A DNA stretch of 64,000 nucleotides from Octopus vulgaris (lineage: Eukaryota), in the NCBI GenBank assembly GCA_951406725.2, contig OX597833.1, forward strand, positions 58,404,001-58,468,000, written 5' to 3'. Each line of letters begins with the position of its first letter. Position 1 is the stretch's first letter. The position numbers and the translations under genes were made by a program. The notes beneath the pieces were generated by a model. It ran no database searches. It saw only the letters and a program-made list of their open reading frames with translations, and was not told the origin of the DNA. Positions 9,846-58,169 of this stretch are shown piece by piece.

Positions 9846-10191
9846 GTTACGTCTTGTTTGTGTTCGTACTCATTTTGCCCCGCTGCTTGGAATTTTATTT
9901 TAATTCTCTCGCAGGAAGGCCTATTGGATTAGTGTTCTGTTATGCCTTCGAAACATGCCTGACTCCTCTAGCGACAGCTGATGACGGGGGTTTTGTCCTT
10001 GTGTAGCTCGTCCTGTATTTGTTTTTCGTTTTCCGTTTTCTTGTTTTTTGGTTTTTTGGTTTTTTCCGTTTCTACGTCTTATTGTGATGTCCTGTACTCC
10101 CGTATAATTATTTATATATGCATGTATATATACATGTAGATGTAGGTACGTACATATATGTTTGTATGTATGCATATATTTTTATTTATCT

Positions 10192-10239
<48 letters not shown>

Positions 10240-10259
10240 TATATATACTTTTATATATC

Positions 10260-10489
10260 TATTTCTTTACTGCCCACAAGGGGCTAAACACAGAGAGGAC
10301 AAACAAGGACAGACAAACGAACTAAGTCGATTATATCGACCCCAGTGCGTAACTGGTACTTAATTTATCGACCCCGAAAGGATGAAAGGCAAAGTCGACC
10401 TCGGCGGAATTTGAACTCAGAACGTAGCGGCAGAAGAAATACGGCTACGCATTTCGCCCGGTGTGCTAACGTTTCTGCCAGCTCGCCGT
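10260..10489 (-). mobile_element. SINE family 2 monomer
   Basis: Full head and body, reverse complement. Confidence 0.85.
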
Positions 10490-11021
10490 CATCATTATCA
10501 TCATCATAGTCGTCACCGTCATCGTCACCTTCCTCGTCATCATCATCATCATCATCATCATCATCACCACCACCTTCCTCGTCATCTTCTACTGAAACGA
10601 CCATCATGTGTATTTACAGTGTTTGCCTCTTCGCTAATGGAAACGGGTGTAGCACCCATTTCCATCTCAAGGAGTTCACCATCCCAATCGCCCCCTCTCC
10701 TAACATGACACACACACAATAAAGGAGAAAAAGAAAAAGAAAGAAAATGAAGAGCAAAATAAAAGTCATCTTGTAATCCGGCACAATTGTCACAACAACC
10801 TTACCCCGATCAATATGAGGCTCTTCACCCGGGACCACCTCCCCCAAAATAAATAAAATAAAATAAAATAAACCAGCTTGGTGGATGTTAATAAGTATAT
10901 AGAAAACGAATATGAGGGGGAACAACTGGGCGCTGACGACCCTGGGGGTTGGGGACTTGCGGAAAATTCACAAGATCCGATTTTTCCGTCATAACTTCTG
11001 GTAAAATGGATATATATATAT

Positions 11022-11215
11022 ACTTTTTTACTTGTTTCAGTCATTTGATTGCGGCCATGCTGGAGCACCGCCTTTAGTCGAGCAAATCTACCCCGGGACT
11101 TATACTTCGTGAGCATAGTACTTATTCTATCGGTCTTCTTTGCCGAACCGCTAAGTTACGGGGACGTAAGCACACCACCATCGGTTGTCAAGCGATGTGG
11201 GGGAGGGCAAACACA

Positions 11216-11259
<44 letters not shown>

Positions 11260-11423
11260 CATATATACGACGGGCTTCTTTCAGTTTCCGTCTACCAAAT
11301 CCACTCACAAGGCTTTGGTCGGCCCGAGGCTATAGTAGAAGACACTTGCCCAAGGTGCCACGCAGTGGGAATGAACCCGGAACCACGTGGTTGGTAAGCA
11401 AGCTACTTACCACACAGCCACTC
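11022..11423 (-). mobile_element. SINE family 1
   Basis: Near full-length match to the other copies. Confidence 0.85.
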
Positions 11424-11600
11424 TTGTGGAATCACACGTTTTTGGTTATGGAGGACCCGATTCTGAAACCGTAACACGTAACTGCGAATTACGAAGTTTT
11501 TTCATTTTTCAAAAAAAACCCCCCGAAACTCGTTTCCTTTAGTTTGAGAATTCTAGCTCTACTTCATTCCAAACTGCCTCGCTTCACTAAGTTTCTAGAG

Positions 11601-11819
11601 CAGTGCTTTTCAACCTTTTTCCCGGAGCGGAACCCCAAGGAAACATTCCACTGGCTCGAGGAACCCCTGTGCAATAATTTAATAGTCTTATGCACACATA
11701 TCTGCACAGGAGACTTAAAAATTACTGCCGATTTTAGCAGTTTTGTAACTTCTTGCGGAATCCCTGGACTGTACTGGCGGAACCCTAAGGTTCCGCGGAA
11801 CCTTGGTTGAAAACCACTG
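11601..11819. mobile_element. hAT (Charlie-like) MITE
   Basis: TIRs CAGTGCTTTTCAACC / GGTTGAAAACCACTG; 8-bp TSD TTCTAGAG. Confidence 0.88.
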
Positions 11820-12672: not shown

Positions 12673-12804
12673 TCACAAAGACACATACATGCATGCATAC
12701 ATACATATACATACATACATATACATACACACATGCACATACATACATACATATACACACACATACATACACACATACATACATACACATACACACACAC
12801 ATAC

Positions 12805-12837
<33 letters not shown>

Positions 12838-17831: not shown

Positions 17832-19466
17832 GATAATGATGACACTGTAATAAACACCAGGTCGAGTCTCTTTTCTTTTCTTTTCTTTTTCTTCCTTTCT
17901 CTGTGGTCGTTCAAACCGGTTAGAAATAGCAGTCAAATCTTCGATTCGCATTATTTTGAAAAAGAAAAAAGAATTTTAAAAAAAACGACGTGTTGGGTGT
18001 TATTGAAACATTGTGTCAAGGAAATAATCCCATCTCATAAAAAAAAAAAACATAAAAAAAACGGGATGGTCACGGCTAGAATGTTTGATGAAAGCTGACC
18101 TTGGCCAAACGCCACCACCACCACCACCACCATCGTCTACAGCAACTGCAACAACTGCGAAGGCCTCTCTGTGGTCGTTCGATTTGCTTAGAAATAGCAG
18201 CCAATTTTTCTTATTGGTCCTTGATTGCACTATCTGAATAAAAGACGGGATGGGCACGACTGGAATGTCGGAATGTTTTGACCCTCTCCCCCCCCCCCTC
18301 TCTTTCTTTCTTTCTCTCTCTCGTCAGGCTTGGACTTTGGGTTTACTAAACAACATCAATCAGCTGGTGGTAGTAGTAATGGTGGTGGTGGTGGTGGTGG
18401 TGGTAATGATTGTTGTATCAGCTGAAGTCGTTCGAGGTCGTGGAGGCAAATAATAAATGTAATATCGCTATGTTAGTGGCGGCGACGGTGGTGGTAGTGG
18501 TAGCAGTAGTAGTGGTAGTGATGGTGGGAGTTGTAGTAGTGGTGGTGGTGGTGGTGGTGGTGAGTGTAGTAGTACCTGAAATCACAGGTATTGAGTGGTT
18601 GTCGGTGGTTAGATAGAGCTTTGAGCAGCAGATCCCGACGCTCATTCGTTGTTGTTCAGCTCCAAATCAGCTCTGATCGCGCAAGGAAAACTGATGAAAG
18701 ACACTCCAGACGTGGCCACCCTGTCTATATTTCTTAGATACAGTGTTTGAGTAACAGACATACATTCTCTGGTGTGTCCTTAGGTGGTTTATTTGCGATG
18801 GAAATTTGGTTGCTCTGTCTAGCAGGTCGAGTGAACACGTAAAATAAAAAATAAAACACTCGTTAGTACACTGTAGTTGTTATTGCTGTTGTTAAGCCCT
18901 AGGTCGGTCATTATCGAGAATATTTTGTGATGAAAAGCAATCCAAACGTAGCCACCCTGTGCTGTCTTTTTCTCTCTCTCCCGGATATATATCTAGGCCT
19001 TCTTTGTGCAATGCGTCCCTCGTTTTATTAGATAATAAGGTGTTATTTGAGAGTTAGGGTTAAGGAGACAGTTGAGGAGAGATATAGGGGCTATATATCA
19101 CTTCTGGAAGACAGGATCGAACAAGCTGACGTTCTGTTGTTGAATTAGGTGAAGATATCGAGCGATTTTCCCGTGGCATTTCGGTCAAACTTCTTGATGT
19201 TCCGAGCGAGATATATTCCTCAAAAGATTTCCAATATCTATTTTGTCTTTGAATCTCTCTCCCCTAATCTATGATTTCCTCGCATTCATTCTCTCTCTCT
19301 TTCTGTTCTTGTTTTAGTATGTCTCTCGCTCTCCCATTTGTGTCTCCCTAATGGAATCCTTTGAATTCTCTCTCTCTCCCTCTGTATGTATGTGTGTGAC
19401 CTCGTCTGTATCACTAGCGATTCTTTTTCCTCCGTCTTCCCTTCTCTGGATCTTTCCTTCTCCTAT

Positions 19467-19501
19467 GTTTCCGACGAAGAGCTTCGCTCGAAACGTCAAA
19501 C
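19467..19501 (+). ncRNA. Minimal Penelope-type hammerhead-like motif (U4>C variant)
   Basis: GTTT-CCGACGA-A-GAGC-TTC-GCTC-GAAA-CG-TC^AAAC: stem I GTTT/AAAC, stem II GAGC/GCTC, ACGT palindrome in place of stem III. Confidence 0.5.
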
Positions 19502-19575
19502 CCTCCTTCTTTCCTGAGCGTCCAATAATACTATATTTGTTCCACGTCCTTGCGTTGTTGTTTTTTTGTTTGGAT

Positions 19576-19623
<48 letters not shown>

Positions 19624-19720
19624 GTTAATCCAAACAAGAAAGCACAAAAAACACAACAAAGCGAGGACGTGGAACAAATAAAGTATTATTGGACGCTCAG
19701 GAAAGAAGGGAAGAAGGAGG

Positions 19721-19755
19721 GCTTGACGTTTCGAGCGGAGCTCTTCGTCGGAAAC
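19721..19755 (-). ncRNA. Inverted second copy of the minimal hammerhead-like motif
   Basis: Minus strand GTTT-CCGACGA-A-GAGC-TCC-GCTC-GAAA-CG-TC-AAGC; differences from copy 1 fall in the loop or create a G.U pair. Confidence 0.5.
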
Positions 19756-19882
19756 ATAGGAGAAGGAAAGATCCAGAGAAGGGAAGACAGAGGAAAAAAA
19801 ATCGCCAACGGTACACACGAGGTCCGTCTGTAAATCATAAATCCGAAAGAGAAGCACACTCTTTAAGTTATAGAGCGCTAGA

Positions 19883-20105
19883 ATATTTAGATAAAGGTAT
19901 AACCGGTCTATGGGATTACCCAGGGTTTCGCGTTCGTAAAGCAAAGCACTCTGATGAGACGCTGTAGAGCTAAGGTGCTTTACGGACCCGAAACCCTGGG
20001 TAACCCCATAGACCGGCCATAACTAACTACCTTTATCTAAATATACATGAGTGGCTGTGTACTAAGTAGCCACACAGCTACTCGTATATATTTAGACAAA
20101 GGTAG
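19883..20105. repeat. Overlapping fold-back hairpins
   Basis: Arms 19883-19943 / 19976-20044, and a second hairpin 20027-20105 whose centre is a folded SINE-head fragment (gagtggctgtgt / acacagctactc). Confidence 0.75.
19951..20007 (+). ncRNA. Hammerhead-like motif lacking the 5' strand of stem I
   Basis: CTGATGA-G..CTGTAGAGC-TAAGGT-GCTTTACGG..C-GAAA-CCCTGGG-TA^ACCCC; near-palindromic stem III ACCCTGGGT; sequence 5' of the core does not pair with ACCCC. Confidence 0.45.
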
Positions 20106-20110
20106 ATATC

Positions 20111-29325: not shown

Positions 29326-30280
29326 AGGTGGTGAGCTGGCACAAACGTTAGCACGCCGGGCGAAGTGCGTAGCCGTATTTCGTCTGCCGTTACGTTCTGG
29401 GTTCAAATTCCGCCGAGGTCGACTTTGCCTTTCATCCTTTCGGGGGTTGATAAATTAAGTACCAGTTACGCACTGGGGTCAATGTAATCGACTTAATCTG
29501 TTTGTCTGTCCTTGTTTGTCCCCTCTGTGTGTAGCCCCTTGTGGGCAGTATAGAAATAGGTATTTCATCTGCCGTTACATTCTGGGTTCAAATTCTGCCG
29601 AGGTCAACTTTGCCTTTCATCCTTTTGGGGGTCGATAAATTAAGTACCAGTTACGCACTGGGATCGATATAATCGACTTAATCCGTTTGTCTGTCCTTGT
29701 TTGTCCCCTCTGTGTGTAGCCCCTTGTGGGCAGTAAAGAAATAGGTATTTCGTCTGCCGTTACGTTCTGAGTTCAAATTCCGCCGAGGGCGACTTTGCCT
29801 TTCATCCTTTCGGGGGTCGATAAATTAAGTACTAGTTACGCACTGGGGTCAATGTAATTGACTTAATCCGTTTGTCTGTCCTTGTTTGTACCCTCTGTGT
29901 GTAGCCCCTTGTGGATAGTAAAGAAATAAGTATTTCATCTGCCGCTACGTTCCGAGTTAAAATTCGGCTGAGGTCAACTTTGCCTTTTATTATTTCGGAG
30001 TCGATAAATTTAACTACCAGTTACGCACTGGGGTCCATATAATCGACGTTTGTCTGTCCTTGTTTGCACCCTCTGTGTTTAGCCCCTTGTGGGTAGTAAA
30101 GAAATATGTATTTCATCTATTATGAGTTCAAATTCCGCTGTGGTCGACTTTGCCTTTCATCCTTTCGGGGGTCGATAAATTAAGTACCAGTTACGCACTG
30201 GGGTCGATGTAATCGACTTAATCCGTTTGTCCTTGTTTGTACCCTCTGTGTTTAGCCCCTTGTGGGTAGTAAAGAAAATA
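29326..30280 (+). mobile_element. SINE family 2 pentameric concatemer
   Basis: One head plus units starting at 29562, 29747, 29932 and 30110 (period ~185 bp). Confidence 0.88.
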
Positions 30281-30299
30281 TATATATATATATATATAT

Positions 30300-30330
<31 letters not shown>

Positions 30331-30685: not shown

Positions 30686-30921
30686 GTGAGTGTAGTGGCG
30701 GGTGGGGGGATATTTTTCTGTATTTTTTTTTTGTTTTTTTTTTATTATTATTTCAATTTACACATTTGATTTTTTGTTTTTTTTTCTAAGTAAACTAGTT
30801 TCTTTATTTAGGCAGAAGGCCAGTTGTTGTTGTTAAGTTAATTTCTTTCATAAAGAACTGTGTATGAGGTAGGAGATGGTGCAGGTAGGAGCAAAGTAAT
30901 TTGAATAAAAAAAAAAAACGC

Positions 30922-31347
30922 GAATCTTTCCTGTTTGAACGGCAGTTTTTTAAAATAATTTCCACGTAACTAAAAAATTTTAAACTTCCTATACTGGTAG
31001 AATGTGTTTATAAAACATCTTTTTTCTCTTGGCTTTCTTAAGAAAATTCTATAGTTTGTAAGACATTTGTTGTTGTTTTTTTCTTCAATTTCTGCAATTT
31101 CAACCAATCACTGACGTCTATTGAGGTAAAAAACATTCTGTGCCGTATGAATATGTCCCTCGTTTAAGAAACAGATTGGGTTTATTTACATTTGTGAAGA
31201 AAAAAAGATACCCTTCCCCCCACCCCTAACTAACCCTAACCCTAAAACAGATTGAAATGCAATAGATCGATTCTAGGGTCATAATTATGGGTGACAATTT
31301 CATATGACACCGCTAGAAAAAAACTGCCGGTCAAACCGAAAAGATCC
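30922..31347 (-). mobile_element. GGATC-TIR MITE
   Basis: Both TIRs present; flanks AAAAACGC / AAAAAAGC (8-bp TSD, one mismatch). Confidence 0.85.
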
Positions 31348-31608
31348 AAAAAAGCTCTCTTGATCCTCAAAGTACCACTGGTAGTATAGTTGTTGTTGCT
31401 GTTTAAACTCGGATCAGCTCTGATCGACCAGATCACACCTAGCCTATATCTATGATTCAAGGCATTCCAATTCTGACCTTCCTGTCTTAACTGGATAAAC
31501 TATGCTTGCAAAATATAAAAAGAAAGAAAATCCAACTGATGGAATGTCTTTTGACCTTAGACCTGATCATCTTTTATCAGGCATAATGGCATAATTTATG
31601 TGTATGTG

Positions 31609-31832: not shown

Positions 31833-31861
31833 AGATTATGGTATTGAACATGTATTCAACA

Positions 31862-32280: not shown

Positions 32281-32454
32281 ATTCAACATGTCCTTCCTCT
32301 TTTTAAGATGCTAGAATTTAATCTGAGGGGTGCTTTGGCTGCTGTTTCTAGCATGTAGAGAACCTCAATACTGGATCGACATTATTTGTTCTACTCGCTT
32401 CGTTTATTGGACTGCAGCTATATTGGGGTCCTGCCTTGAAGGGTTTAATTAAAA

Positions 32455-36768: not shown

Positions 36769-37873
36769 TCATATGCATTCACTACACAGTTCTCTCTCTG
36801 ATAAACTGTTTCCTCTATCTATCTCTCCCTCTCCTTTTCTCTCTCTCTCTATTTCTCTCCCCTCCTTTCTTTTGTTCTTATTCCATTGTCATTCCTTCAT
36901 TTCTCTCTTTTTTTCTTCTCACTACTCCCCCTCTCTCTCTTTTATTCACCCCCCCTCTTGCTCTCTTATATCCATTATCCTCTATCTCTCTCTCTCTCCT
37001 GCCATCACTGTCTGTAGTGCACATGTACCACATTTGCCTCTCAGCTTTGATACTTTAAATCGTGCACATGCAGTACATATATCCACCTTTACATTCTCAT
37101 GCACATACTTGCACTCTCCCGCGGCTATCATAAAGTCATGCTCAGTTTGGCAAAAGCTTAGCAAATGGATTCAAGAGGGGCATTCAGCTCAGCAGTGGAT
37201 CACATTTTGCAGGTTATTTCTGCTTAGCAAATCATATCATCAATATCTCTTTATCTCTTGTCTTGCTTTTATAGGTGAGAGATGAGGGATTTGTATTCTT
37301 CATCTCTCACCTACAAAGAGAACAGTAGCTTATACTCCTTCTTGGAACCCACTCAGCTTTTCCTAACAGTTTCTGTTTTTTTTTTTCTTTAAATGCTCAC
37401 ATGACACTTAGAAGACAAACAGCCACAGCAAGTCACCACAGTTCAATAATCATGTGCATGCAAACCAGCTATTGACATAATTACTCACACAAGATACACT
37501 GTTCATTTCCTATCACTCCTACACCACCCATACACACTACTGCAATTCAGCATGCACACACATTCACAGTCAAATACATAAATTCATGTCAAATTCATGC
37601 ACACACATACATGGGAGAGAAACAGCAGCTATACACATGAAATCAGCATTCACCCACACAAAAACACACTCAATACCAGACACACATAAATACACACACA
37701 CACACAGCTGTCTACCTATATGCAAAAAATACATTCTCATGCACACCATCAATGTATTCAACAGCTGACACATAAACATGATCATTACTACTCTTTGTGA
37801 ACCCTTCTATGTTGGTCACCACTTTCTTTTTCCTCTCACTACCATCTCGCCCCCAAAATCTGTAAATGCAAGT

Positions 37874-40198: not shown

Positions 40199-40920
40199 GT
40201 AAGTCATATCTATGTGTCTGTCCATCCATCTATCTATCTATCTATCTATATATATATATATATATATATACAAAATTTAAAGGACTGACCACTAAAAGTG
40301 GACGGTCAATATGTTAGATATAGACGTCAAAATCGCTGTTCTCTTGAACACATTCTTCGTGGAAAAAAGCAATTTTGACGTCTATATCTAGCATATTGAC
40401 CGTCCACTTTTAGTGGTCAGTCCTTTAAATTTTGCATGTAAAAAATATTATAATCTTCGGATTTTTTTAATATGCTGGGCCACTGGTTTTAATTGATTAA
40501 TATCAATTTCTACCCTTATTCAATTTTATATATACTCTTACTCTTTACTCTTTTACTTGTTTCAGTCATTTGACTGCGGCCATGCTGGAGCAACGCCTTT
40601 AATCGAGCAACTCGACCCCGGGACTTATTCTTTTGTAAGCCCAGTACTTATTCTATCGGTCTCTTTTGCCGAACCGCTAAGTAACGGGGACGTATACACA
40701 CCAGCATCGGTTGTCAAGCAATGCTAGAGGGACAAACACACACACGCATATATATATATACATATATATGACGGGCTTCTTTCAGTTTCCGTCTACCAAA
40801 TCCACTTTGGTCGGCCCGAGGCTATAGTAGAGTATACTTGCCCAAGGTGCCACACAGTGGGACTGAACCCGGAACTATGTGGTTGGTAAACAAGTTACTT
40901 ACCACACAGCCACTCCTGCG

Positions 40921-40971: not shown

Positions 40972-43900
40972 CGCCCTTTAATTCAGGGAATTCCCGGTTA
41001 AGGTTATCGATTTCAAGTAGATACATCCCCACTAGGTCCATCACTTCCGCTGAATCCGGTGAGCCCATGGTGATGTCAAATAAATTGGGTGTGTCTTTTC
41101 TAGCCCATAGTTTGTTATCAAATTCTATTAATATATATATATATCAATATATATATATATATATATATTCATTCTTTTTCACTTGTTTCAGTCATTGAAC
41201 TACAGCCATGTTGCAGTAAAGGAATAAACACAAAGGCATACACACAGATGTTTGCACACACAAACACACACACACATCTGGTTCGCCAGACCTCAGTCAA
41301 AATCGTCCAACCCATGCTAGCATGGAAAGCGGACGTTAAACAATGATGATGATGATGATGATGATGATGAATATTCTTATTCCTGCTATTTTCCTTTCTA
41401 CAAGTATGTAAGGAATTGTGAGGCACTCATCCAGTGCCAACCTCATTTCCTACAGACGTATAGAAGATTCCATAAGTTATGTAGACCCCTTGAACACAGA
41501 CAGGATTCTTAACCAAATCTATGTCCTCGACAAAAATATTGTTACCCTTTCTTCCTGCCACAAGTTTCCTCACCATTTATTGCTGTTTTCTTTTGTTTGA
41601 TATTTTTCCAGGTCCTTTTGCAAGTACACTGGCCACGAAATATGGATGTCGTAAGGTTACCATTGCTGGCAGTATCTTTGCAGCGGCTGCATTTTTTATT
41701 AGTAGTTTTTCATCCAGCATCCAGATGTTGATAGTGACCTATGGAATTCTGGGAGGTAAGTGGTGATGGGGATGGGGATGGTGGTGGTGGTGGTGGTGGT
41801 TTATATGTGTGTTTATTGTTGTTCTGTGCGTGTGTGTCTGTGTGTTTTGAAGTGATTGTGTTGTGTTTGCCTTGATGTGATTGTGTGTGTGTTGATGTGA
41901 GTGTGTGTGTGTTTTGAAGTGATTGTGTTGTGTGTGTGTGTGTTAATGTGATTGTGTGTGTGTGTGTGTGTGTTTTGAAGTGATTGTGTTGTGTGTGTGT
42001 GTGTTTGATGTGATTGTGTGTGTGTGTGTAATGATGTGATTGTGTATGTCTGTGTTTTGAAGTGATAGTGTGTGCGTGTGTGTGTGTTTTGAAGTGATTG
42101 TGTGTGCGTGTGTGTGTGTTTTGAAGTGATTGTGTTGTGTGTGTGTTGATGTGATTGTGTGTGTGTGTGTTTTGAAGTGATTGTGTGTGTGTTGATGTGA
42201 TTGTATGTGTGTTGATGTGATTGTGTGTGTCTGTGTGATTTTGTGCTTGAGGAGACCTATTGAGTGAAGTACATCAACATAAAAATCAAAATCAAATGGA
42301 AATTGTAGTTGTGGTACCCATGCCGGTGGCATGTAAAAAGCACCATCCGAACGTGGCCGATGCCAGCGCCGCCTAACTGGTGTCTGTGTCGGTGACACGT
42401 AAAAAGCACCAACCGATCGTGGACGTTTGCCAGCCTCCTCTGTTCCCTGTGCCAGTGACACGTAAAAAGCACCCACTACACTCACAGAGTGGTTGGCGTC
42501 AGGAAGGGCATCCAGCCGTAGAAACTCTATCGGATCAAGATTGGAAACTGGTGCAGCCTCCTGGCTTCCCAGACCCCGGTCGAACCGTCCAACCCATGCT
42601 AGCATGGAAAATGGACGTTAAACGATGATGATGTGTTTTGTCTGTGTATTGATGTGGTTATGTATGTGTAGCGAAGTGATTGTTCAAGGACCCAACACAT
42701 ATCCCAGTCCAGGAATTGAACTTACAACCTCATAATGCTCGAACCACTGAGCTATGCACCTTCACATATGCACGCACGCACACGCACACACACACACACA
42801 CACACACTTGTGTGTGATGGGCTTCATTCAGTTCCAGTCTATCAAAATCACTCAAAAGACTTAAGAATCATCCCAGACTTATAGCCTGACGCTTACCAAT
42901 TTGCTGCATGATGGAAACTGAACCCAAGACCAATTAGATGGGAAGCAAGCTTCTCAGCCTCCAGCCATGCCCCTACCTGTGAAATATTTAACCCTTTAGC
43001 ATTCAGACTTCTTTGTCAAATGTATTGCTTATTCATTCGCATTTTTTTCTTTCTACCTTTAACCCTCCAACGCGGCGTATAGGCCTCTTATAATTGAATT
43101 CCACATGGTTTGGAGACAAGCTTCTTAACCACACAACCATGCCTGCACCAAATTATTATATGTAATTTTTTCATGAAAAAGAAATACGGTTTTTAATTAA
43201 AGCTTTCTTTTTTTTTTCTTTTTGCAGGCATCGGATTTGGATTTATCTACCTTCCTTCAATTGTGATAATCGGGTATTGGTTTGAGAAAAAACGAGCTTT
43301 TGCTACAGGGGTTGCAGTTTGTGGAATGGGTCTCGGTACTTTTATCTTCCCACCTCTTACTGAGTACTTGCTGCAGAAGTACAACTGGCAAGACTGTGTG
43401 ATAATCATATCAGGACTGATACTCAACTGTGCTGTGTGCGGAGCCCTTTTTCGTCCGGTCCGTCCACAGACGAAGCGGATGAAACGGGGCTTCGTCGCAC
43501 GGGGCTCGATCATGCGAGCCCTCATTGAGGAGAAAAAGCGACAGCGTACCATATCTAACGGATCTCTCGACAACTGTATCATCACCAACGACAACCGTCT
43601 CATCAAATTGGATTGTATCGGCTCCAACCGTAGCAGTATTGCATCCTACTTTCAGCGGTCGAGGAGCCCACACAGTTCAAAGTGCCCCAGCAGGAGCAGC
43701 CTGCTACCACAAAACATAGTTGTCGAGTCCTTTAGGGTGGATGGCACGACTACGAAACCCATGAGCTCAAACTTGCTGAAACCCCCTGCTGTCCCAGCTA
43801 TCCACTCGATGGACATTCCTGAAAGCAACAAGCTGATCACGAACAGTGTGTCCCTTATGCCCAAAGCGAAAAGTTGTGATTCCCTCACGCCTGAGGACCC

Positions 43901-46900
43901 TTGGGACAAACTCTCTGAGGAGGGCTCATTGAGCACTCGTAGCCTCAGTTATGTCGGCGTCAGTGACTCGCGTATTGAGATAAACACGCCCTCGGCTGAG
44001 GCATCGGCTGTGAACAGCACGTCGGCGAGCCCATGCGAAAGCAGGTGCGAAAGCCGACAGACTATTAACACATCAAACCAGGAAGACCCCCCCAAATGTT
44101 ATCTTTACAATTGTAACAGTGATTTACCACCTTGCCTTATGGGCTCCAGTATTGTTAGCATTGCTAAATTCCAGGCCAGTATTCGAAGTTTGGAAAGCAT
44201 TTACGAAAACAATGGACACTCAAGAAAACTTCTACAGATGTTCCAGGAAATAATTGATCTGTCACTATTCCGAAATTTGACGTTCTGTGTTTTGCTTCTC
44301 TCTACATTTCTTAGCATGTTAGGTAAGTTGGTTTTTTTTTTTTTTTTTTTTTTTTTTTTGTCATCATTTGCTGTCTCTTTTACTAAATGCTGACACTACC
44401 ACCACTGACAAATGGCTCAGATGCCATTCAACACCACTCATTACTATTGCTACAAGCACTACCAACAACACCACTCATTACTATTGCTACAAGCACTACC
44501 AACAACACCACTCATTACTATTGCTACAAGCACTACCAACAACACCACTCATTACTATTGCTACAAGCACTACCAACAGCACCACCACCACCACCACCAA
44601 CAACAAGACTACCGCTCACCACCAATACTGTCATAAGCTTTCTTACCATCATAACGACTACTGCTACCAGCATTCTCACTTCTGTTGTTACCACCACCAT
44701 CACCACTATCATCACCATTATCACCACCTTCTCTGCCGCCACCACCAAGACCACAAGTAGCACCACAACCAGCACCATCACCATCACCACCACCCACTTC
44801 TGCTGTTACCACCACCATCACCATCTTTATCATTACTACCACCACCACCATCACCACTATCTTCACCATCATCCTCACCTCTGTATCACCACCTTCTCTG
44901 CCACTACCACCAAGACCACAACTAGCACCACCACCCACTTCTGCTGTTACCACCACCACCACCACCACCACCATCTTTATCATTACTACTACCACCACCA
45001 TCACCATCTTTATCATTACTACCACCACCATCACCACTATCTTCACCATCATCCTCACCTCTGTATCACCACCTTCTCTGCCACTACCACCAAGACCACA
45101 ACTAGCACCACCACCCACTTCTGCTGTTACCACCACCACCACCATTTTTATCATTACTACTACCACCACCATCACCATCTTTATCATTACTACCACCACC
45201 ATCACCACTATCATCAACATCATCCTCACCTCTGTATCACCACCTTCTCTGCCACTACCACCAAGACCACAACTAGCACCACCACCCACTTCTGCTGTTA
45301 CCACCACCACCACCATCTTTATCATTACTACTACCACCACCATCACCATCTTTATCATTACTACCACCACCATCACCACTATCATCACCATCACCTCTGT
45401 ATCACCACCTTCTCTGCCACTACCACCAAGACCACAACTAGCACCACCACCCACTTCTGCTGTTACCACCACCACCACCATCACCATCTTTATCATTACT
45501 ACCACCACCACCATCACCATCTTTATCATTACTACCACCACCATCACCACTATCATCAACATCATCCTCACCTCTGTATCACCACCTTCTCTGCCACCAC
45601 CACCAAGACCACAACTAGCACCACCACCCACTTCTGCTGTTACCACCACCACCACCACCATCTTTATCATTACTACTACCACCACCATCACCATCTTTAT
45701 CATTACTACCACCACCATCACCACTATCATCAACATCATCCTCACCTCTGTATCACCACCTTCTCTGCCACCACCACCAAGACCACAACTAGCACCACCA
45801 CCCACTTCTGGTGTTACCACCACCATCACCACCACCATCTTTATCATTACTACTACCGTCATCCTCACCTCTATTATCACCACCTTCTCTGCCACCACCA
45901 CCACCCACCACCATCATCACCATCATCACCATCATCCTCACCTCTATTATCACCACCTTCTCTGCCGCCACCACCACCACCATCACCACCACCACCACCA
46001 CCACCATCACCTTTATCATTACTACTACCACCACCATCACCATCACCACTATCATCACCATCATCCTCACCTCTATTATCACCACCTTCTCTGCCACCAC
46101 CACCACCACCACCACCACCATCACCACCACCACCACCACCACCATCACCATCTTTATCATTACTACCACCACCATCACCATCACCACTATCATCACCATC
46201 ATCCTCACCTCTATTATCACCACCTTCTCTGCCACCACCACCACCACCACCACCACCACCACCACCACCATCACCATCTTTATCATTACTACCACCACCA
46301 TCACCATCACCACTATCATCACCATCATCCTCACCTCTATTATCACCACCTTCTCTGCTGCCACCACCACCACCATCACCACCACCACCACCATCACCAT
46401 CTTTATCATTACTACCACCACCATCACCACTATCATCACCATCATCCTCACCTTTGTTATCACCACCTTCTCTGCCACCACCACCACCACCACCAAGACC
46501 ACAACCAGCACTACCACCACCACCATCATCAACATCATTACTACCTCTAACTTCTATAGCTATATAAAAAAAAAAACAAAGATAGAAAACATAAATAAAA
46601 ACATATATATATTTCTTGTTCCCAGGTTTTTTCATCCCGGTTGTCTATTTGCCCGCATTGGCCCAGCAAATTGGCATGAACAGCCAGGAATCATCATACC
46701 TCGTGTCGGTCAGCGGTGTTACGAACATTGTTGGACGGCTACTCTCAGGTTTTCTGGCTGACCGTCCAGTCTTCGGTGCGCTACACATCAACAACACAGC
46801 ACTCATAATGGTAGGATTGTGCACCATCTTCTGCCCGTTTCTCAAGGACAAGACCACGCTCAATATCTACAGCGGCATCTATGGTCTTGGAGTGGGTAAG

Positions 46901-48705
46901 TAGGGGACGGAGGTCCATTTGCCCCTTCTCCTCATTTCGTCTTTTCTTTTTATTGTTTGTTTTATTATGCTTTTATTCTTTTACTTGTTTAAAGTCATAT
47001 GACTGTGGCCATGCTGGAGCACCGCCTTTAATCGAAACTAATCGGCCCCCAGGACTTATTCTTTGTAAACCTAGTACTTATTCTATCAGTGGGTCTGAGA
47101 TTATAAATATCTTGGGTCATACATATCATCATCTGGAAAAGACTTTCTAACTAAAAAGGGTATGGCTTGGTCAGCCTGTAATGACATGCATAAGATCTGG
47201 TCATCAAATCTAAGTAGAGACTTCAAACTTGAAATCTTCAAAGCCACAGTCGAACCAATTCTACTATATGGCTCAGAAACTTGGACATTATCAAAGAAGC
47301 TTGAGAGGCGGTTGGATGGAACCTACACTCGCCTCCTTATGAGAGCTCAAAATCTCTCGTGGAGGCGCCATCCAACCAAAATGCAAATATATGGGAAATT
47401 ACCACCTGTGTCATCTCTTGTGAAAGGTAGGAGAGTCCAGTTTGCTGGACATTGTTGTAAAGCTGAAAAAGAAGTAATTTCTACTCTTCTCCTTTGGAAG
47501 CCAGCTACTCGCAACACCAGAGGGCGCACACTCTCCTACCCTGATGTAATCTCCAGGGATACAGGCATCCAGCAACAGGACCTCCGTAATGCTATGATGG
47601 ACCGTGAATTCTGGCATAACATAGTAAATTCCATTGTCTCGACCATGGTCAAACAATGATGATGATGATGGGTCTGAGGTTCAAATACTTTCTTTTTTAA
47701 ATTTTTTTTGTTTTTCCCCTTTTTGCGATATTTAATTTAATTTTGCTTTTCTTTTCTTTTTTTTTTCTTTGCTTTTTTTTTGCAGCTGCCTTTGTCTCAC
47801 TGAGGTCCGTTTTACTTGTGGATCTACTCGGCTTGGGTCAACTGACCAAATCGTTTGGATTACTTACGCTTTTCCAAGGTATTGCCACAATGGCAGGACT
47901 ACCACTAGGAGGTGAGTGACCCTCTTCTCGTGATCTTTATTGGAAATAATTCTATGTTGTGTGTGTATGTATATATATGTATATATATATATATATATAT
48001 CACAAGAGCGGAATAGCCAGATGTTTGGATAGATAGACAGATAAAAAGGTGACCATTGAAATATATATATAAGTAGCAGAGAGAGGGCCAGAGGATAAAA
48101 TATATAGATAGAGGGTTAAGAGTTGTGTATAAGATATATAATAGATAAATATATATAACAGAGATATATATATATATATATATATATACAAATATACAAT
48201 AGATAAATATACATAACAGATATATATATAGATAAATATACATAACAGATATATATATATATACAAATATACAATAGATAAATATACATAACAGATATAT
48301 ATATATACAAATATACAATAGATAAATATACATAACAGATATATATATATACAAATATACAATAGATAAATATACATAACAGATATATATATATATACAA
48401 ATATACAATAGATAAATAAATATAACAGATATATATATATATATATACAAATATACAATAGATAAATATAATATAACAGATATATATATATACAAATATA
48501 CAATAGATAAATATACATAACAGATATATATATATACAAATATACAATAGATAAATAAATATAACAGATATATATATATACAAATATACAATATATAAAT
48601 ATCATCTATTCGCCAACATCATGATAAATATATATAAAAGATATATATATATACAAATATACAATAGATAAATATATATAACGGATATACAATAGATAAA
48701 TATGT

Positions 48706-49555: not shown

Positions 49556-52500
49556 TCGTTGCATGTAAGCGAGTATGACCTGGTAACCTGTACTCTTCTT
49601 TCACTATCTATCTTAGGTGCCTGTCTTATCATGAGCAGACACAGATACCCTCTCAGCCATCCCACCCTTGACCCAGCAGAACATTGAGGACATGACAGCT
49701 GGAAGTGACAAAGGGCCATGTCAGCTCTTGACTGGTTAGAATTTTCAGCTGAGCAGACTGGAGCAGTGTGAAAGGAAATGTGCATTGCTGAAGTTCACAA
49801 TGTGCTGCCCGGTCCAGGAATTGAACCTGTGGTCTTCTGATCATGAGCACAACATTGTAACCACTAAACTTCGTGCTTGTGAAGGCATGTAAACTGGTCA
49901 AAGCATAGTCAGTTCGCATTACCCCATAAGGAGTATAGGGTTAGTTTCACTGACGTATATACTCCCCCCTGGATGGGATGCTAGTCCATCACAGGATTAT
50001 TCTTTTTCACCAGCTGAGTGGACTGGAGCAACTGAAAATATAGTGCTTTGACTAACAACACATCGCCCAGTCCAGGAACTGAAACCACAATCTTACGATC
50101 ATGAGTCCAACACCCCAACAAATACACCATACACCCCCAATGGTCAAAGCATAAGTTACTAAAATGAATGGTGAAAATAGATGACCTCAAAGTAGTTCAA
50201 ATCCAGTCTGGGACTATGTGCATCAAAGACCAGCAACTTGTGATGTTTTTACATGTTTTCATATTTGCTCCATGGTCTACATGGTATATTAATTATATCA
50301 TACCTTACATATAAAAATATCTTTACATATCCATACCCCCACTTCAATCTCTGGTTGTATTTATATAAGCAAAAGTTAAACACAAAAGACAATCTAAAAG
50401 CCATCAACAATCCAGTGGCTCACAAATGTATTTGATTTGAAAAAGGTTTTCGAAAAAGTTTCCATGGCCCAAATGGACCTCAGGGATCCATTTAATGGGT
50501 CGTGACTAAGCTACTGCCAACCCACTTGTATATATATCCAGGATAAAAACACCTGGCAGTGATCAAAGATCAAACCAATTGAAATATATTTTGAAGATGT
50601 AAATTTTAAGAACTGTTCAATCACTAGAGATGAAGTTGATAATCTGAACAATTATAATCTTATTAACAAGACCTTGTGTCAGGCATTTAGATGCTTAATT
50701 CGAAGAAAAAAAATGGTTTTTGGTTAGACTTCATGATGGGACTATGTAGAAATCCAATAGTAGTGATGATGATGATGATAGATAAAATTCATTTTAAATA
50801 TAGTGTAACTACAGTAGAGAGGGAGAGGGCAATACTACTGTATGGAGGGGCTATAATAAGACCACTGTGGGGAGGATCAAAATGCTGCAGGAAAAGATTT
50901 TGGTATTGCCATTGTGGGGTGGGACCTTGAGAATAGCCCTTCATGGAGGGAGCTTGATAATGCCACTGTGAGGAAGGACTTTGAGAATACCACAATATCA
51001 CTTTGAGGAACTAAACTGAGGAGGGACTTTGAGAAATGCCACTGTGGGAGGGTCCTCTCTGTGGGGAGGGACCTTGAGAATACCACTTTAAGGAGTGACT
51101 TTGAGAATGCCACTGTGGGGAGGGTCCTTGAGAATGTCTCTGTGGGGAGGGTCCTTGAGAATGTCTCTGTTCTCTGTGGGGAGGGTCCTTGAGAATGCTG
51201 CTTTGAGGAGGGACCTTGGGAATGCCACTGTGGGGAGGGTCCTTGAGAACACCACTGTGGAGAGGGTCCTTAAGAATATCTCTGTGGGGAGGATCCTTGT
51301 AAATGCCACTCTGCGGGTGGATCTTAATAATATCTCAGTGGGGAGGGACCTTGATATTACCTCAGTGGGGAGGGCCCTAAGAACCTTAAGAATGCTTCTT
51401 ATGCTTCAATGTTTTTTTTTTTTTGTTTTGTTTTTCCCTCACTTCCTTTTCTATAATTTATTACTTTAGAGTTGAAATACCTAAGTGAGTAAAAATGCTG
51501 TCCCCTTATCATAAGATTGTGAAATCAAATGCCCTGCAGATATTTTATCATGTTTCTGAGCAAAGATCTTTTAGCATATACTGCTTTAGGTGCTTTGGTT
51601 GCTAGTGGAAAAGCAAGCAAGATCACCTCCTTTTAGTGTCACTAGCACCTGGGGCTAACGAGGTAAGGTGTCAATAATTCAAAGGATTCTCCTTCAGCAC
51701 AGACCAACTTAATTTATCGACCCCGAAAGGATGAAAGGCTAAGTCGACGTCGGTGGAATTTGAACTCAGAACGTTAAGACAGACGTGGGCAAGTTTGAAA
51801 GAACTTTAAAAGACGGCGAACTGGCAGAAACGTTAGCACACCGGGCGTAATACGTAGCGGTATTTTGTCTGTCTTAACGTTCTGAGTTCAAATTCCGCCG
51901 ACGTCGACTTAGCCTTTCATCCTTTCGGGGTCGATAAATTAAGTTGGTCTGCGACTTCAAGTAGCAGTTCTCCATTCTCTTGTCAATAGAGTGTAGATGG
52001 AGCATAGAGAAGAATAGGGAACTATTGGGTACAGTTTAAATAAAAAAAAAAACAGGAGATGGAAGAAAAAGAGTGGTTAACAGTATGCACTCAAACAACA
52101 GGCAAATACAGGTATATCAAATACTATACAACATAAAATTTTGGTTTATTAAAATGATATCTCCATTTAGAGGATATATCACTATTACCAAATGGTAATT
52201 AAGACCAGTTCTGTGTATGAGAAGAGACAACCCTAAGAACCAAGAACTCTCCAAAGCTAACATGCCATTAAGAAAAGGGACAGGCCCACTGTCTTGAGAC
52301 CAGAGGAGAGTTGTGGACAAGTGTCTCTGGCCCAACAGCTGCTATCAGCATAATTGTCCAACCTTATCTATAGCAGCCAAGGGAACTTAACCGATACAAA
52401 AAGAGCAGAACCCATGCACATAAAAAGCACCATCCGATCGTGGCCATTTGCCAGCCTCCCCTGGCACCTGTGCTGGTGGCACGTAAAAAGCACCAACTGA

Positions 52501-54370: not shown

Positions 54371-54413
<43 letters not shown>

Positions 54414-54442
54414 TTTGTTAGTGTGGATTTACTCATTAATAT

Positions 54443-54476
<34 letters not shown>

Positions 54477-54480
<4 letters not shown>

Positions 54481-54695: not shown

Positions 54696-56210
54696 ATATG
54701 TATGTGCATATATATATATATATACACACACACAAATATATAGGGATAGATAGATAGATAGATATGTGTGTGTGTTTGCATATATATATACATGTGTGTG
54801 TGTGTGTAGTAAGTGAACAGTAGAGTTAGTAGAGTATCAGACACAATACTTTGTTGTATTTGCTTATCTCCCTTTTATGGCCTCTCAAATCTTTCCCAGA
54901 TCCAATCTGTTTCTTAAACGAGGGACATATTCATATGGCACAGAATGTTTTTTATCTCAATAGACGTCATTGATTGGTTGAAATTGTCTCTGTGGTAGGG
55001 CTCCAGGCCTGGGCCAAACAAAACCAAGACGGAGCACCTGGCATCTGGGGTATTGTTAGGGGCTTACAGACCCCTTACCAGTCAAGCAGGCAATATGACT
55101 AGTGCAACTTCCATGTTAGCATTCTGAAGACCAGTGGTGGGGAAGAATGACCAATGTCCTTGGAGAAACTCTGAGTGTCATTGCAAATCAATTAATTAAT
55201 TGGCTCGTCTATTCTGGAAGGATTTTCATGCCCAAGGATTCTTAACTTTCAGAACTTCCTCCTCTGGTTATGCTACCGAGGAGCATTGCTGGTTCAAGAT
55301 AAACTCTACAGGCACAGAAATACTGTGAGCAGAGAGCCTATCTGAGATGTACAAAGTGACAAAACCATTCTGCCTAACCTTTCATCAATGTTTGAAACAT
55401 TTCTGACTTGTGGGGTTTTGCTGAACTGCTGCCATCACATGTGGACAAAATTCAGTTACAAATAGACATTCACTTAGCATTCACTTAGCATTCACTTAGC
55501 ATTCACTTAGTATTCACTTAGCATTCACCTGCAAGTTTTAGAATGTCCGTTTTGAGCTCAGAACCTATTGCGATGCTTGTTGTTATTTAGTTCCAGTTCA
55601 GCTTTGATCAAACTGACCTATGATTAAAAGGCATTTCAGCCATGACTCTCCCATCTTTTTCTGTATGTGTAGGGAACCTAGGACTGCATTTTCCAATGTA
55701 TCTTTTTTTTTTCTAAGATGGGTGAGATTACAATTGAGGGAGATTTGACTGCTGTTTCTAGTAGGTTGTGTGACCACATAGACGTCCCCCGTTGCTTTGA
55801 GTTCAGTTTCTGTCATGTAGAATGGTGGTATTACCACCACCATTCCACAACACAGATACTGATCTCCGGTAATGCTTGTCTTGTTCTTACTACGCTCTTT
55901 GTACTTTTATTTTTTTTAGAGTCAGATTACACCGCTTGTATATGATGCCTTCATATTCTTTAGTGTAAATACAAGTAATACCTAAAACCCAGTTTTCAGC
56001 TACATGATGACAGTTGATAATAGAAAGCAAGAAGAAACCTTATAAATTTAAACCCTGTCATGGTTATTTGTCAATCAGGGGTCAGTATAAATAGGGACCA
56101 ATAAACAGAGGGGTCAGTTCAGTTGACTATAGTGAGCCCTTTTAAGATTTGAACTTATGGCTTGATTAGAAAAATAATAAATCACTATTTTCTTGCCAGT
56201 AAATCATTAA

Positions 56211-56469
56211 AATAATAATAAATGCGCCCTTTTAAAGCCTAGCCAGGCTCATGGCCCCGGTTTCCCGGTTTCAATGGCGTATGTGTTCCCCAGTTGGACG
56301 GGACGCCAGTCCATCGCAGCGTTACTCATTTTTGCCAGCTGAGTGGACTGGAGCAACGTGAAATGAAGTGTTTTGCTCAAGAACTCAACGCGTCGCCCGG
56401 TCAAGGAATCGAAACCACAACCTTACGATCATGATGCTGACACCCTAACCATTAATCCACGTGCCTCCA
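56211..56469 (-). mobile_element. SINE family 3 variant with 14-bp TSD
   Basis: CAGTAAATCATTAA at 56197-56210 and 56470-56483. Confidence 0.85.
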
Positions 56470-56647
56470 CAGTAAATCATTAAGTGTAGGGAAAAGTTTT
56501 AACATTTGAAATAACAACCACTTCAAAGTGTGTACTGGGTGGATTTCATTCTGGCCCTAGCACCAGAGATGTTGTCATACCCCCAGCATGACTTAGTCGT
56601 CTTCTTGACTCTATTGTTACCACTGTTCGATATGCCAACTACTTTAA

Positions 56648-56867
56648 CCCTTTTGTTACTGTATTTATTTTGAGATGCTCTGTGTTTCTTTCAATTACTT
56701 TAAATATAACAAATACTTTAGTAAAATAACTTAGCTATCATTCAGCTAGTGTTAGGAACATAAATTGTGACTAAGGTTTGGTGGAAGATTTTAACTCAAA
56801 ACTTATGAAAACAATATATTTGTACTCAGAGCCAGAGCCAGTTTCAGCCGGGTTGGTAACAAAAGGG
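56648..56867. mobile_element. piggyBac-type MITE
   Basis: TTAA|CCCTTTTGTTAC...GTAACAAAAGGG|TTAA. Confidence 0.85.
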
Positions 56868-57800
56868 TTAAAGTGTGTACTGGGTGCATTTTGTTGTGGC
56901 AGCAGCCCTAACCAGGTGCCTTGTACTTATGCAGGATTAAATCGCTCACCTTACTCTAATGGTGTGAGAGATGACATAAGCTGGGTGTAGGGTGGGATGG
57001 TGAGAGGCATGGAAGTGTGACAGGAGGAACAGTGCTGTTAGTGAAAGAAGGTGGAAGAGAAGAGAGAGAGAGAAAATCATAGAAGATACAGTGCTGAGGA
57101 GGGTAATGACAGAGAAATAGTGATGGGAACTACATGTTTGGTGGCATTAGGGTGTTTGGTTGATGGGAGGTTGTAGAAAGTAGCGATGGTAAGAGGGAAG
57201 CGATGTGTGCCGTTGATAAGTTAATTAAAGGGAGCGAGGGAGGGAAGGATGGTGAAGTGAAAATCTCCCCTCCCGTCCCTTTCTCAAATTATTTTGATAA
57301 GGATGAGAGTTTTGTGGATGGTGACAAGAGTGAGCAGAAAGAGATCCAGTTGCTATCCTATGTCATATACAGGTGACATGGCGCAGTGAATGTAAGGGCA
57401 AATGATAGTAAAAGAGAGGAGTGGGTTTCAAGGGGGCAGAGGGGCAGTTGCGAAAGGGTGGATGACAGATTAGCAAGAGGGTGTCGTAGAGACAGATTGG
57501 TGGTGGTGGTTGGGGGTGTGTAGAGGCAGGGTGGCTGTCGTTGAGAGCGACTCGGCCTTCATCACTACCTCTGTTTTCATGTTCCCATCACCATCCATGT
57601 TCAGGAAAGAACTGCATATTGTTAATTGTCACAGCCCCTTATCTCTTTCGTGAGTCTCAGCATCTCAAGATCAGTCTTCATCACTTTGTCTCATGGCCTC
57701 CTTGGTCTCACTCTTCCCTAGTTTCCATCTACTTTGAGCACTCAGCACTTTATATATATGTATCAAATGAAATAGATGAAAAACAGGACACAAAGGATGT

Positions 57801-57895
57801 TGCGGTACATATGTTTCGGGCTTTATAGAACAATTTATTCTTACATCAATGCATAATCGATATAACAGATAGATCAAAAGACCTCATCAGCCGCA
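57801..57895 (-). ncRNA. Type I hammerhead ribozyme motif (core complete)
   Basis: Minus strand reads TGCGG-CTGATGA-GGTCTTT...AAAGCCC-GAAA-CATATG-TA^CCGCA: 5-bp stem I, CUGAUGA core, stem II with long loop, GAAA, palindromic stem III ACATATGT, GUA cleavage triplet. Confidence 0.75.
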
Positions 57896-57963
57896 TGCAA
57901 TTGCTACAATCAGTATGCATGGACAATGGTGTAGGAACAGGCTGAGACACTGTAGCAATTGCA

Positions 57964-58058
57964 TGCGGCTGAAGAGGTCTTTTGAACTATCTGTTATATC
58001 GATTATGCATTGATGTAAGAATAAGTTGTTCTATAAAGCCCGAAACATATATACCACA
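57964..58058 (+). ncRNA. Degenerate inverted copy of the same hammerhead
   Basis: TGCGG-CTGAAGA-GGTCTTT...AAAGCCC-GAAA-CATATA-TA-CCACA; two G>A changes weaken stems III and I. Confidence 0.55.
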
Positions 58059-58169
58059 ACATCGTTTGTGTCCCGTTTTTCATTTTATTTCATTTGATAC
58101 ATATATCCTATCACCTATGCTACTAGCTGGCATATACAGGTGCTTACATTTATCAAGTATTCACCCTGA

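What the first reader, a model, noticed from the sequence alone, without database searches (positions are those of the whole stretch)
9900..58106. Recurrent system: several unrelated (TA)n-associated fold-back elements, each with a hammerhead-like core
Seen: three sequence-unrelated short elements (19398-19824, 19883-20044, 57754-58106) share one design: a C(T/C)GANGA...GAAA core, a palindromic stem III (ACGT, ACCCTGGGT, ACATATGT), a 3' tail ending in TA-rich sequence, and an inverted partner copy. 9900-10117 has a permuted core and the tail but no partner; 40271-40535 has the fold-back and TA flanks but no core. A decayed PLE GIY-YIG remnant lies at ~59450-60360. Inference: this genome hosts a diverse set of TA-targeting, ribozyme-tipped PLE mini-elements whose insertion routinely leaves inverted duplications. 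That would seed both self-cleavage sites and long dsRNA hairpins in a lineage known for heavy ADAR editing.
Basis: partly seen in the sequence, partly recalled or inferred. Interest (0 to 1): 0.8.

Follow-up and report, generated by a model that had tools for sequence, protein, structure and literature searches.

The report
Octopus Penelope-type hammerhead fold-back stubs
These short hairpin-shaped pieces of octopus DNA carry real but mostly degraded self-cutting-RNA motifs and are likely leftovers of Penelope-like jumping genes, a pattern already described in other animals; the hairpins are predicted to bury the motifs rather than let them cut.

Summary
The sequences are there and exceed chance (strict type I hammerhead scan: 3 hits at 2 loci vs mean 0.10 in 100 shuffles). 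The host is an Octopus. They do not share one design: B (19825-20044) and C (57754-58106) are head-to-head with one-sided tails, A (19398-19824) is tail-to-tail around (TA)19, E has no core. Public contigs show A is a very high-copy family with a preferred 5' end and a mostly non-canonical core (CCGA, about 3/4), and that other B copies are fold-backs with different junctions. D matches the layout of published octopus Naiad 3' ends. Minimal hammerheads, opposite-strand pairs, inverted truncated partners, tails, host-DNA capture and (TA)n targeting are all published Penelope-like (PLE) features; this scan noted the same kind on other genomes. No autonomous partner was linked; the 'GIY-YIG remnant' was not confirmed by any database. 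Folding predicts that fold-backs abolish the ribozyme fold, so 'seeding self-cleavage sites' is unsupported; dsRNA and editing are plausible but untested. New members of a known kind; the open lead is whether family A routinely forms hairpins.

The parts
19398..19581 (+). Element A, left arm: near full-length copy of a very high-copy ~190-bp family; minimal hammerhead core CCGACGA 19471-19477, 4-bp stem II, GAAA 19490, palindromic ACGT, predicted cleavage nucleotide 19497; T-rich tail ending at (TA)n
19580..19617 (.). (TA)19 between the two 3' ends of A (tail-to-tail centre)
19623..19824 (-). Element A, right arm: core 19745-19751, predicted cleavage nucleotide 19725; 5' end abuts the 3' end of B's left arm
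19825..19950 (-). Element B, inverted 5'-truncated arm without the CUGA half-core, carrying a one-sided ~58-nt tail (19825-19883) that other copies end at microsatellite
   Evidence: (loose ends before 19825 in 7 X7 contigs)
19945..20043 (+). Element B, forward arm: CTGATGA 19951-19957, long decayed stem II, GAAA 19990, stem III ACCCTGGGT, no stem I in this copy
20062..20108 (-). Third, short inverted piece of B's tail region (local hairpin 20024-20108)
57754..57909 (-). Element C, left arm: complete type I layout, CTGATGA 57884-57890, 5-bp stem I, ACATATGT stem III, predicted cleavage after 57806
57905..57949 (+). Spacer of C: inverted copy of flanking DNA 58321-58365 (44/45), likely captured during insertion
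57950..58106 (+). Element C, right arm: CTGAAGA 57969-57975; substitutions break one stem III and one stem I pair
58107..58170 (+). One-sided ~64-nt extension of C running to a (TA)n run; candidate PLE tail
   Evidence: role inferred
9915..10117 (+). Element D: 6-bp hairpin with 23-nt loop (9915-9949), GAAA 9950, CTGATGA 9978-9984, T-rich tail; same layout as published octopus Naiad 3' ends
   Evidence: comparison with the supplement made by eye
40271..40535 (.). Element E: 98% fold-back (40271-40437) with a ~95-nt one-sided extension to TA; no hammerhead core; unassigned; lies in an intron just after an exon of the MFS gene
59430..60400 (-). Decayed coding-like stretch with a 234-bp tandem duplication; CX4CxxC and YIRQT words suggest a PLE endonuclease, unconfirmed; no DNA shared with A-E
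43230..44330 (+). Exon of the host monocarboxylate-transporter-like MFS gene; 97% identical to an Octopus bimaculoides protein (places the host)

Best explanation
A, B and C are short multicopy repeats carrying minimal type I hammerhead motifs and TA-ended tails, and they are likely 3'-end (pseudo-LTR) pieces of Penelope-like retroelements that PLE enzymes would have copied into (TA)n. Inferred steps: the PLE endonuclease nicks AT-rich DNA on both strands and the RT extends both ends, starting at two nearby internal sites of the RNA (shown in vitro for a lizard PLE, PMC11167929). When the two cDNAs face inward and join after 5' truncation, the result is a head-to-head fold-back with the tail on one arm only (B, C), sometimes with nearby host DNA caught at the joint (C). 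When both 3' ends stay on the same (TA)n tract, by one event or by two insertions, the result is tail-to-tail (A). The hammerhead is inherited cargo. In these copies it likely does not cut: the cores are variant or damaged, there is no same-strand second copy for a dimer, and the fold-back pairs the core with its antisense. D is likely a Naiad-type PLE 3' end; E is unassigned.
For: Shown: motif excess over shuffles. A has the published min-HHR traits: 4-bp stem I, extra base between 9 and 10.1, G10.1-C11.1, palindromic 15.2-16.2 (vs PMC4209133). A and B are multicopy: summed contig depth peaks at 19,000-111,000 times the flank for A's right arm and 12-123 times for B in three runs (inflated by contig overlap, not a copy number). 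7 of the 15 joints shown (of 21) lead from B's reversed tail to its forward hammerhead region with skips of 73-138 nt; two joints whose in-between letters are given show the switch directly, one with GGT (stem I) before an intact CTGACGA (tables 5, 5c). Loose ends at the 3' ends of A and B carry TA runs (table 7). Published: opposite-strand min-HHR pairs 100-700 bp apart; inverted 5'-truncated copy, one-sided tail, (TA)n bias; host capture; octopus Naiads listed with (TA)n preference; PLEs are 6.83% of O. vulgaris, 190 families; hammerhead mutants do not impair insertion and no RNA-seq reads ended at the site in the lizard PLE.
Against: No element was tied by sequence to an RT-endonuclease ORF: no whole genome is held, four 11-12-nt motifs from A-D have 0 hits in the Naiad/Chlamys/Hydra consensus supplement (line breaks can hide hits), and the local remnant is unconfirmed and unrelated. 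The one-sided extensions (~58 and ~64 nt) are longer than the 30-40 nt published. A's geometry is the rarer one for PLEs, and its preferred 5' end is not what random truncation gives. Fold-backs also occur without hammerheads (E; SINE piece 51700-51951). The only raw-read run, X22, gave 7 reads and no depth on the flanks, so the copy-number signal rests on contigs. C and D were not examined in other copies.
Confidence: 0.75

Rival explanations
1. A (and E) are MITE-like or habitual fold-back elements whose unit is the whole hairpin, with (TA)n as a variable centre, rather than single arms paired at this locus.
For: Both arms of A end within a few bases of a preferred family end (loose ends behind 19824 in 59, 56 and 15 contigs of X2, X7, X4, followed by heterogeneous AT-rich flanks, agreement 0.45-0.49). 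Both arms share C at the cleavage position, where 92-99% of family depth has T. Contigs break at (TA)n, so a partner cannot be seen or excluded. E's arms are 98% identical and have no core.
Against: Each arm of A has retroelement polarity (hammerhead, T-rich tail, TA end). B's junctions vary between copies, which fixed TIRs would not. No TSD can be read at A. One shared rare base can also come from one subfamily or from conversion between arms.
Confidence: 0.12
2. One reading: these are active ribozyme-tipped mini-elements (retrozyme-like) whose RNAs self-cleave and circularise.
For: C's left arm has a complete type I layout; about 25-28% of A's depth has canonical CUGA; one X2 contig shows a CTGATGA variant of A in a same-strand repeat (table 5c); retrozymes are proposed PLE derivatives.
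Against: No head-to-tail tandem at these loci; whole fold-backs give stem I/II probability 0.000, and even single arms give at most 0.16 for stem I and 0.32 for stem II; U4C lowers activity in vitro (PMC3088659); 8 of 9 Xenopus retrozyme dimers showed no cleavage.
Confidence: 0.08
3. The inversions arose after insertion by DNA-level fold-back repair at fragile (TA)n tracts or by template switching, independent of PLE enzymes.
For: Hammerhead-free fold-backs occur in the same window (51700-51951, E); A's centre is a palindromic (TA)19; C's spacer is templated from nearby DNA.
Against: The arms stop at or near element boundaries and do not carry flanking DNA along; one-sided tails and variable head-to-head junctions in several B copies match the published PLE pattern.
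Confidence: 0.05

Closest known systems
Minimal hammerheads (min-HHR) of metazoan Penelope-like elements (Cervera and De la Pena 2014, PMC4209133; parts 1-2 of 4 read)
   Same: Type I core, short stem I, extra base before stem II, G10.1-C11.1, palindromic stem III, many unrelated families per genome, opposite-strand pairs 100-700 bp apart.
   Different: A's majority core is CCGACGA with a GUU site and a 4-bp stem II; B and C have long stem II inserts; no copy here sits in a pLTR next to an ORF.
EN+ PLE insertions with an inverted 5'-truncated copy, one-sided tail and captured host DNA (Arkhipova et al. 2013, PMC3846280, part 2 of 5 and passages; Craig et al. 2021, PMC8557442, passages; Frangieh et al. 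2024, PMC11167929, passages)
   Same: Head-to-head fold-backs B and C, tail on one arm, host-derived spacer, AT-rich or (TA)n target.
   Different: Tails of ~58-64 nt rather than 30-40; A is tail-to-tail, which PMC3846280 names as the less frequent arrangement expected from self-priming on a sense template.
Octopus Naiad 3' end, 'HHR_half_core' (Naiad_Obim, Naiad_Ovul; PMC8557442 supplement, table and passages seen)
   Same: 6-bp hairpin with a 23-nt loop closing just before GAAA, then 23 nt (24 in D), then CAG-CTGATGA, then a T/G-rich tail to TA; (TA)n preference.
   Different: D's sequence is diverged: 3 of the 6 hairpin pairs are changed on both sides; no Naiad ORF was found beside D.
Non-LTR retrozymes (Cervera and De la Pena 2020, PMC7229834, passages; Li et al. 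2026, 10.64898/2026.07.22.740005, parts 1-3 of 5)
   Same: Short non-coding hammerhead-bearing repeats related to pLTRs; dispersed monomers.
   Different: Retrozymes are defined by head-to-tail tandems with complete hammerheads; these loci are inverted pairs or singles.

Membership tests
PLE minimal hammerhead | CUGANGA and GAAA cores in type I order with stems I and II | tested here: met
   C left arm fully; A with U4C; B lacks stem I here but another copy shows it. Not met for D and E.
PLE minimal hammerhead | Palindromic positions 15.2-16.2 / loop 3 | tested here: met
   ACGT, ACCCTGGGT, ACATATGT
PLE minimal hammerhead | G10.1-C11.1 pair, usually with an extra base after position 9 | tested here: met
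   Pair present in A, B, C; extra base in A only
PLE minimal hammerhead | Multicopy families with a conserved core | tested here: met
   A and B multicopy; among the 40 of 61 variant rows shown, A's core varies at U4 (25-28% canonical) and at the cleavage base. C not examined.
PLE minimal hammerhead | Self-cleavage as a dimer | not testable with these tools
   Needs an assay; folding predicts burial in the fold-backs
EN+ Penelope-like element | Sequence continuity with an RT + GIY-YIG ORF | tested here: inconclusive
   No genome held; no match to the local remnant; 0 motif hits in published Naiad/Chlamys/Hydra consensuses
EN+ Penelope-like element | Adjacent inverted 5'-truncated copy (head-to-head) | tested here: met
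   B and C here, and other B copies with different junctions. A is tail-to-tail instead.
EN+ Penelope-like element | One-sided 30-40-bp tail | tested here: inconclusive
   One-sided extensions exist but are ~58 nt (B) and ~64 nt (C)
EN+ Penelope-like element | AT-rich / (TA)n target | tested here: met
   3' ends of A and C at TA runs; TA-like loose ends in other copies of A and B; base rate 9-18%
EN+ Penelope-like element | Target-site duplication | tested here: inconclusive
   TTTATATATAT flanks C on both sides but cannot be told from the microsatellite; no empty site seen
Naiad 3' half-core (element D) | Hairpin-GAAA, ~23 nt, CTGATGA near the 3' end, TA terminus | tested here: met
   by-eye comparison of two published sequences with D
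Naiad 3' half-core (element D) | N-terminal EN + RT ORF upstream | tested here: inconclusive
   Upstream lies a ~123-bp tandem repeat and no such ORF by eye; not searched against databases
Non-LTR retrozyme | Head-to-tail tandem of units each with a complete hammerhead | tested here: not met
   No direct repeat of A, B or C among the self-BLAST rows seen (output partly cut) or in the sequence around them
Non-LTR retrozyme | Circular RNA | not testable with these tools
   No RNA holder listed
MITE / DNA fold-back transposon | Fixed terminal inverted repeats with a fixed TSD | tested here: inconclusive
   Not met for B (variable junctions); open for A and E

The most novel reading that the evidence does not exclude
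Family A, present in thousands to tens of thousands of copies, is a SINE-like PLE passenger with a fixed 5' end that has relaxed its ribozyme (U4C majority) and routinely lands tail-to-tail in (TA)n, making ~400-bp near-perfect hairpins. It would then be a main source of the exceptionally abundant dsRNA and hyper-editing reported for octopus, the counterpart of the frog's palindromic edited repeat. Alongside it, Naiad 3' ends keep a covarying hairpin with the two hammerhead half-cores in reversed order, possibly an undescribed RNA fold.
Probability: 0.2. Interest if true: 0.65.

Novelty: new member of a known kind. Interest (0 to 1): 0.33.

Why it matters
As it stands, it adds octopus families to a known catalogue and warns annotators that such hairpins are easily filed as SINEs, MITEs or miRNA-like loci (A matches plant miRNA models below their thresholds). 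It would matter more if family A is habitually a hairpin. Porath et al. 2017 (PMC5625713, passages) report that octopus has an exceptionally high share of loci able to form long dsRNA and one of the two strongest hyper-editing signals, and they left octopus out of the repeat assignment. A named, countable source repeat would make that question testable. A very successful family with a weakened core would also fit the in vitro result that hammerhead cleavage is not needed for PLE insertion (PMC11167929).

Tried and rejected
Whole-genome scan: no genome held. Exact-pattern scans for family A in metagenome and viral contigs: 0 and 0. Sequencing runs: no RNA holder listed; X4, guessed RNA, shows flat flank depth like DNA and is not taken as expression. 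X22 (raw reads, same species label) gave 7 reads and no flank depth, and was set aside as uninformative; it is the only raw-read run, so nothing independent checks the contig depths. Reads could be laid once, on A and B; C, D and E were not examined in other copies. PLE remnant: no Pfam family at E<=1 except one chance hit in 12 frames, no homologue, one unrelated hit among 1.84 billion representatives, none in PDB; it stays unconfirmed. D as a type II or GCS hammerhead: a descriptor tailored to D finds only D and 0 in 200 shuffles (post hoc), but type II needs a missing base in stem III, a GCS-type site appears in 1649 of 5000 shuffles of its tail, and by eye the pairing is not kept in Naiad_Ovul; rejected as evidence of catalysis. 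ADAR footprints between arms: mismatches are mixed, no A/G excess. The six 'opposite strands' joints in B were not counted as fold-backs because a single copy matching the better arm gives the same row. An identical 5' breakpoint of A's two arms was considered and dropped: the left arm follows the family 3 nt further. Lunse et al. 2017 is not held (known only through PMC6765202). Literature searches for octopus hammerhead PLE mini-elements: 0 papers with all four terms; searches listed none that describes these families. Repbase, Dfam and the Zenodo library of PMC13282606 could not be seen and may already hold them.


Full report
Setting. No whole genome is held. An exon at 43230-44330 encodes an MFS domain 97% identical to an Octopus bimaculoides protein, so the host is an Octopus. 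The window is dense in SINEs and microsatellites; 9.4% of it lies within 15 nt of a (TA)4+ run. I call the elements A (19398-19824), B (19825-20044), C (57754-58106), D (9915-10117) and E (40271-40535).

Observation. A strict type I hammerhead descriptor gives 3 hits, both arms of A and the left arm of C, against a mean of 0.10 (max 1) in 100 local dinucleotide shuffles; without the stem I requirement the excess fades (6 vs 2.9, 9 of 100 shuffles reach it). A later descriptor, written after seeing the elements, adds B (4 hits vs 0.125 in 200 shuffles). Arm identities are 93.4, 94.8, 94.2 and 98.4% for A, B, C and E, and the elements share nothing beyond 10-mers. The geometry differs: A's 3' ends face each other across (TA)19, while B and C join head-to-head with tails outward. 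C's spacer is a 44/45 inverted copy of DNA 215 bp beyond its right arm, and a ~64-nt extension follows the right arm only. A has CCGACGA on both arms; B has one core and no stem I; C's right arm has lost two pairs. E has no core. Rfam showed no hammerhead family among the 150 of 287 rows listed.

Other copies. Four runs were laid on 18900-20110. X22, the only raw-read run, gave 7 reads and no flank depth and says nothing. In three contig sets the flank depth is 17.7, 5.6 and 5.7, while the peak bin on A's right arm is about 56,000, 111,000 and 19,000 times that and a B bin 94, 123 and 12 times. These sums are inflated by overlap of short contigs and are not copy numbers; my inference is thousands to tens of thousands of copies for A and tens for B. 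A has a preferred 5' end: 59, 56 and 15 contigs run loose behind 19824 into heterogeneous AT-rich sequence (20 loose-end rows shown, 549 not shown). Position U4 is canonical in only 25-28% of depth, and the cleavage base is T in 92-99% where both window arms have C. B's family begins at 19825, where 7 X7 contigs carry a microsatellite flank, so B's left arm has a ~58-nt one-sided tail and A's right arm sits at its end. Of 15 joints shown (21 in all), 7 lead from B's reversed tail to its forward hammerhead region with skips of 73-138 nt, 6 are arm switches that I did not count, and 2 lie in A. Two joints with their letters given show the fold-back directly, one with a stem I strand before an intact CTGACGA. 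So B routinely forms fold-backs with variable junctions. For A the question is open, because contigs break at (TA)n. A's left junction is bridged or reached in X2, X4 and X7, i.e. under two organism labels; no empty site was seen.

Element D. The supplement of Craig et al. 2021 lists octopus Naiads with (TA)n preference and marks Naiad_Ovul 'HHR_half_core'. The 3' ends of Naiad_Obim and Naiad_Ovul read: a 6-bp hairpin with a 23-nt loop, GAAA, 23 nt, CAG-CTGATGA, tail. D has a 6-bp hairpin with a 23-nt loop, GAAA, 24 nt, CAG-CTGATGA, tail; by eye 3 of the 6 pairs are changed on both sides. D is therefore likely a Naiad-type 3' end. I found no support for catalysis.

The remnant at 59430-60400 shows CX4CxxC, which fits the CX2-5CxxC motif described, and YIRQT, which recalls the endonuclease YIGQT word (recalled), in one frame. 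Six searches gave no PLE hit and it shares no DNA with A-E. It is plausible, unconfirmed, and not shown to be the driver.

Mechanism. Shown: the anatomy, the multicopy state of A and B, and variable fold-back junctions in B. Published: minimal hammerheads in pLTRs, in many families per genome, with opposite-strand pairs 100-700 bp apart, inactive as monomers; an adjacent inverted 5'-truncated copy, a one-sided tail and (TA)n bias; host DNA captured between pLTRs; a PLE protein that nicks and extends both strands, starts at two internal RNA sites, does not need hammerhead cleavage, and leaves no RNA-seq ends at the site. Inferred: PLE enzymes acting in trans made these insertions; inward-facing cDNAs gave B and C, outward priming from one (TA)n tract or two insertions gave A. 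Predicted: the ribozymes are silent here, since stem I and II probabilities are 0.000 in every whole fold-back and at most 0.32 in single arms, and U4C lowers activity. Long dsRNA would form if the loci are transcribed; E lies in an intron, while transcription of A-D is unknown. Fold-backs are not exclusive to hammerhead elements (51700-51951, 84/85).

Comparison and verdict. It works like, and very likely is, PLE pseudo-LTR debris. Formal membership lacks the link to an RT-endonuclease ORF. It is not a retrozyme array. I found no paper on these octopus families, but repeat libraries that I could not see may hold them, and PLEs already account for 6.83% of O. vulgaris in 190 families. Earlier notes of this scan reached the same kind of verdict on other genomes; they are not independent support. 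New members of a known kind; interest 0.33. The lead worth following is family A's size, variant core and possible habit of forming hairpins in a genome with unusually abundant dsRNA.

Noticed in passing
window 51700-51951: Tail-to-tail fold-back of a SINE-family piece, arms 84/85 identical, both starting at the same point, no hammerhead; a control showing other routes to fold-backs.
   Followed up: partly
window 9378-9900: About four tandem ~123-bp T-rich units directly upstream of D, with PLE-tail-like composition but no CUGANGA core on either strand.
   Followed up: partly
window 59677-60143: 234-bp tandem duplication (95%) inside the decayed coding-like stretch.
   Followed up: no
window 58950-59075 (- strand): Short frame CTRHCRSLAGLKSHIRS followed by (TAA)n; resembles an RTE-type LINE 3' end (recalled).
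   Followed up: no
window 47099-47659 (- strand): 186-aa open frame resembling the C-terminal part of an RTE-type LINE reverse transcriptase (recalled), inside the MFS gene region.
   Followed up: no
window 6862-7278, 7950-8365, 30921-31348, 63514-63920: Four copies of a ~420-bp element with 28-31-bp terminal inverted repeats and internal CCCTAA-like units; MITE-like.
   Followed up: no
window 19702-19746 (table 5c): One X2 contig (depth 33) carries a canonical CTGATGA version of family A in a same-strand repeat with a different upstream sequence; a possible tandem, dimer-competent subfamily.
   Followed up: no
window 37268-37317 and 55799-55866: Two further short imperfect hairpins without a hammerhead core.
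   Followed up: no
window 29326-30302 and 31861-32283: Head-to-tail arrays of ~185-bp units of the commonest SINE-like repeat.
   Followed up: no
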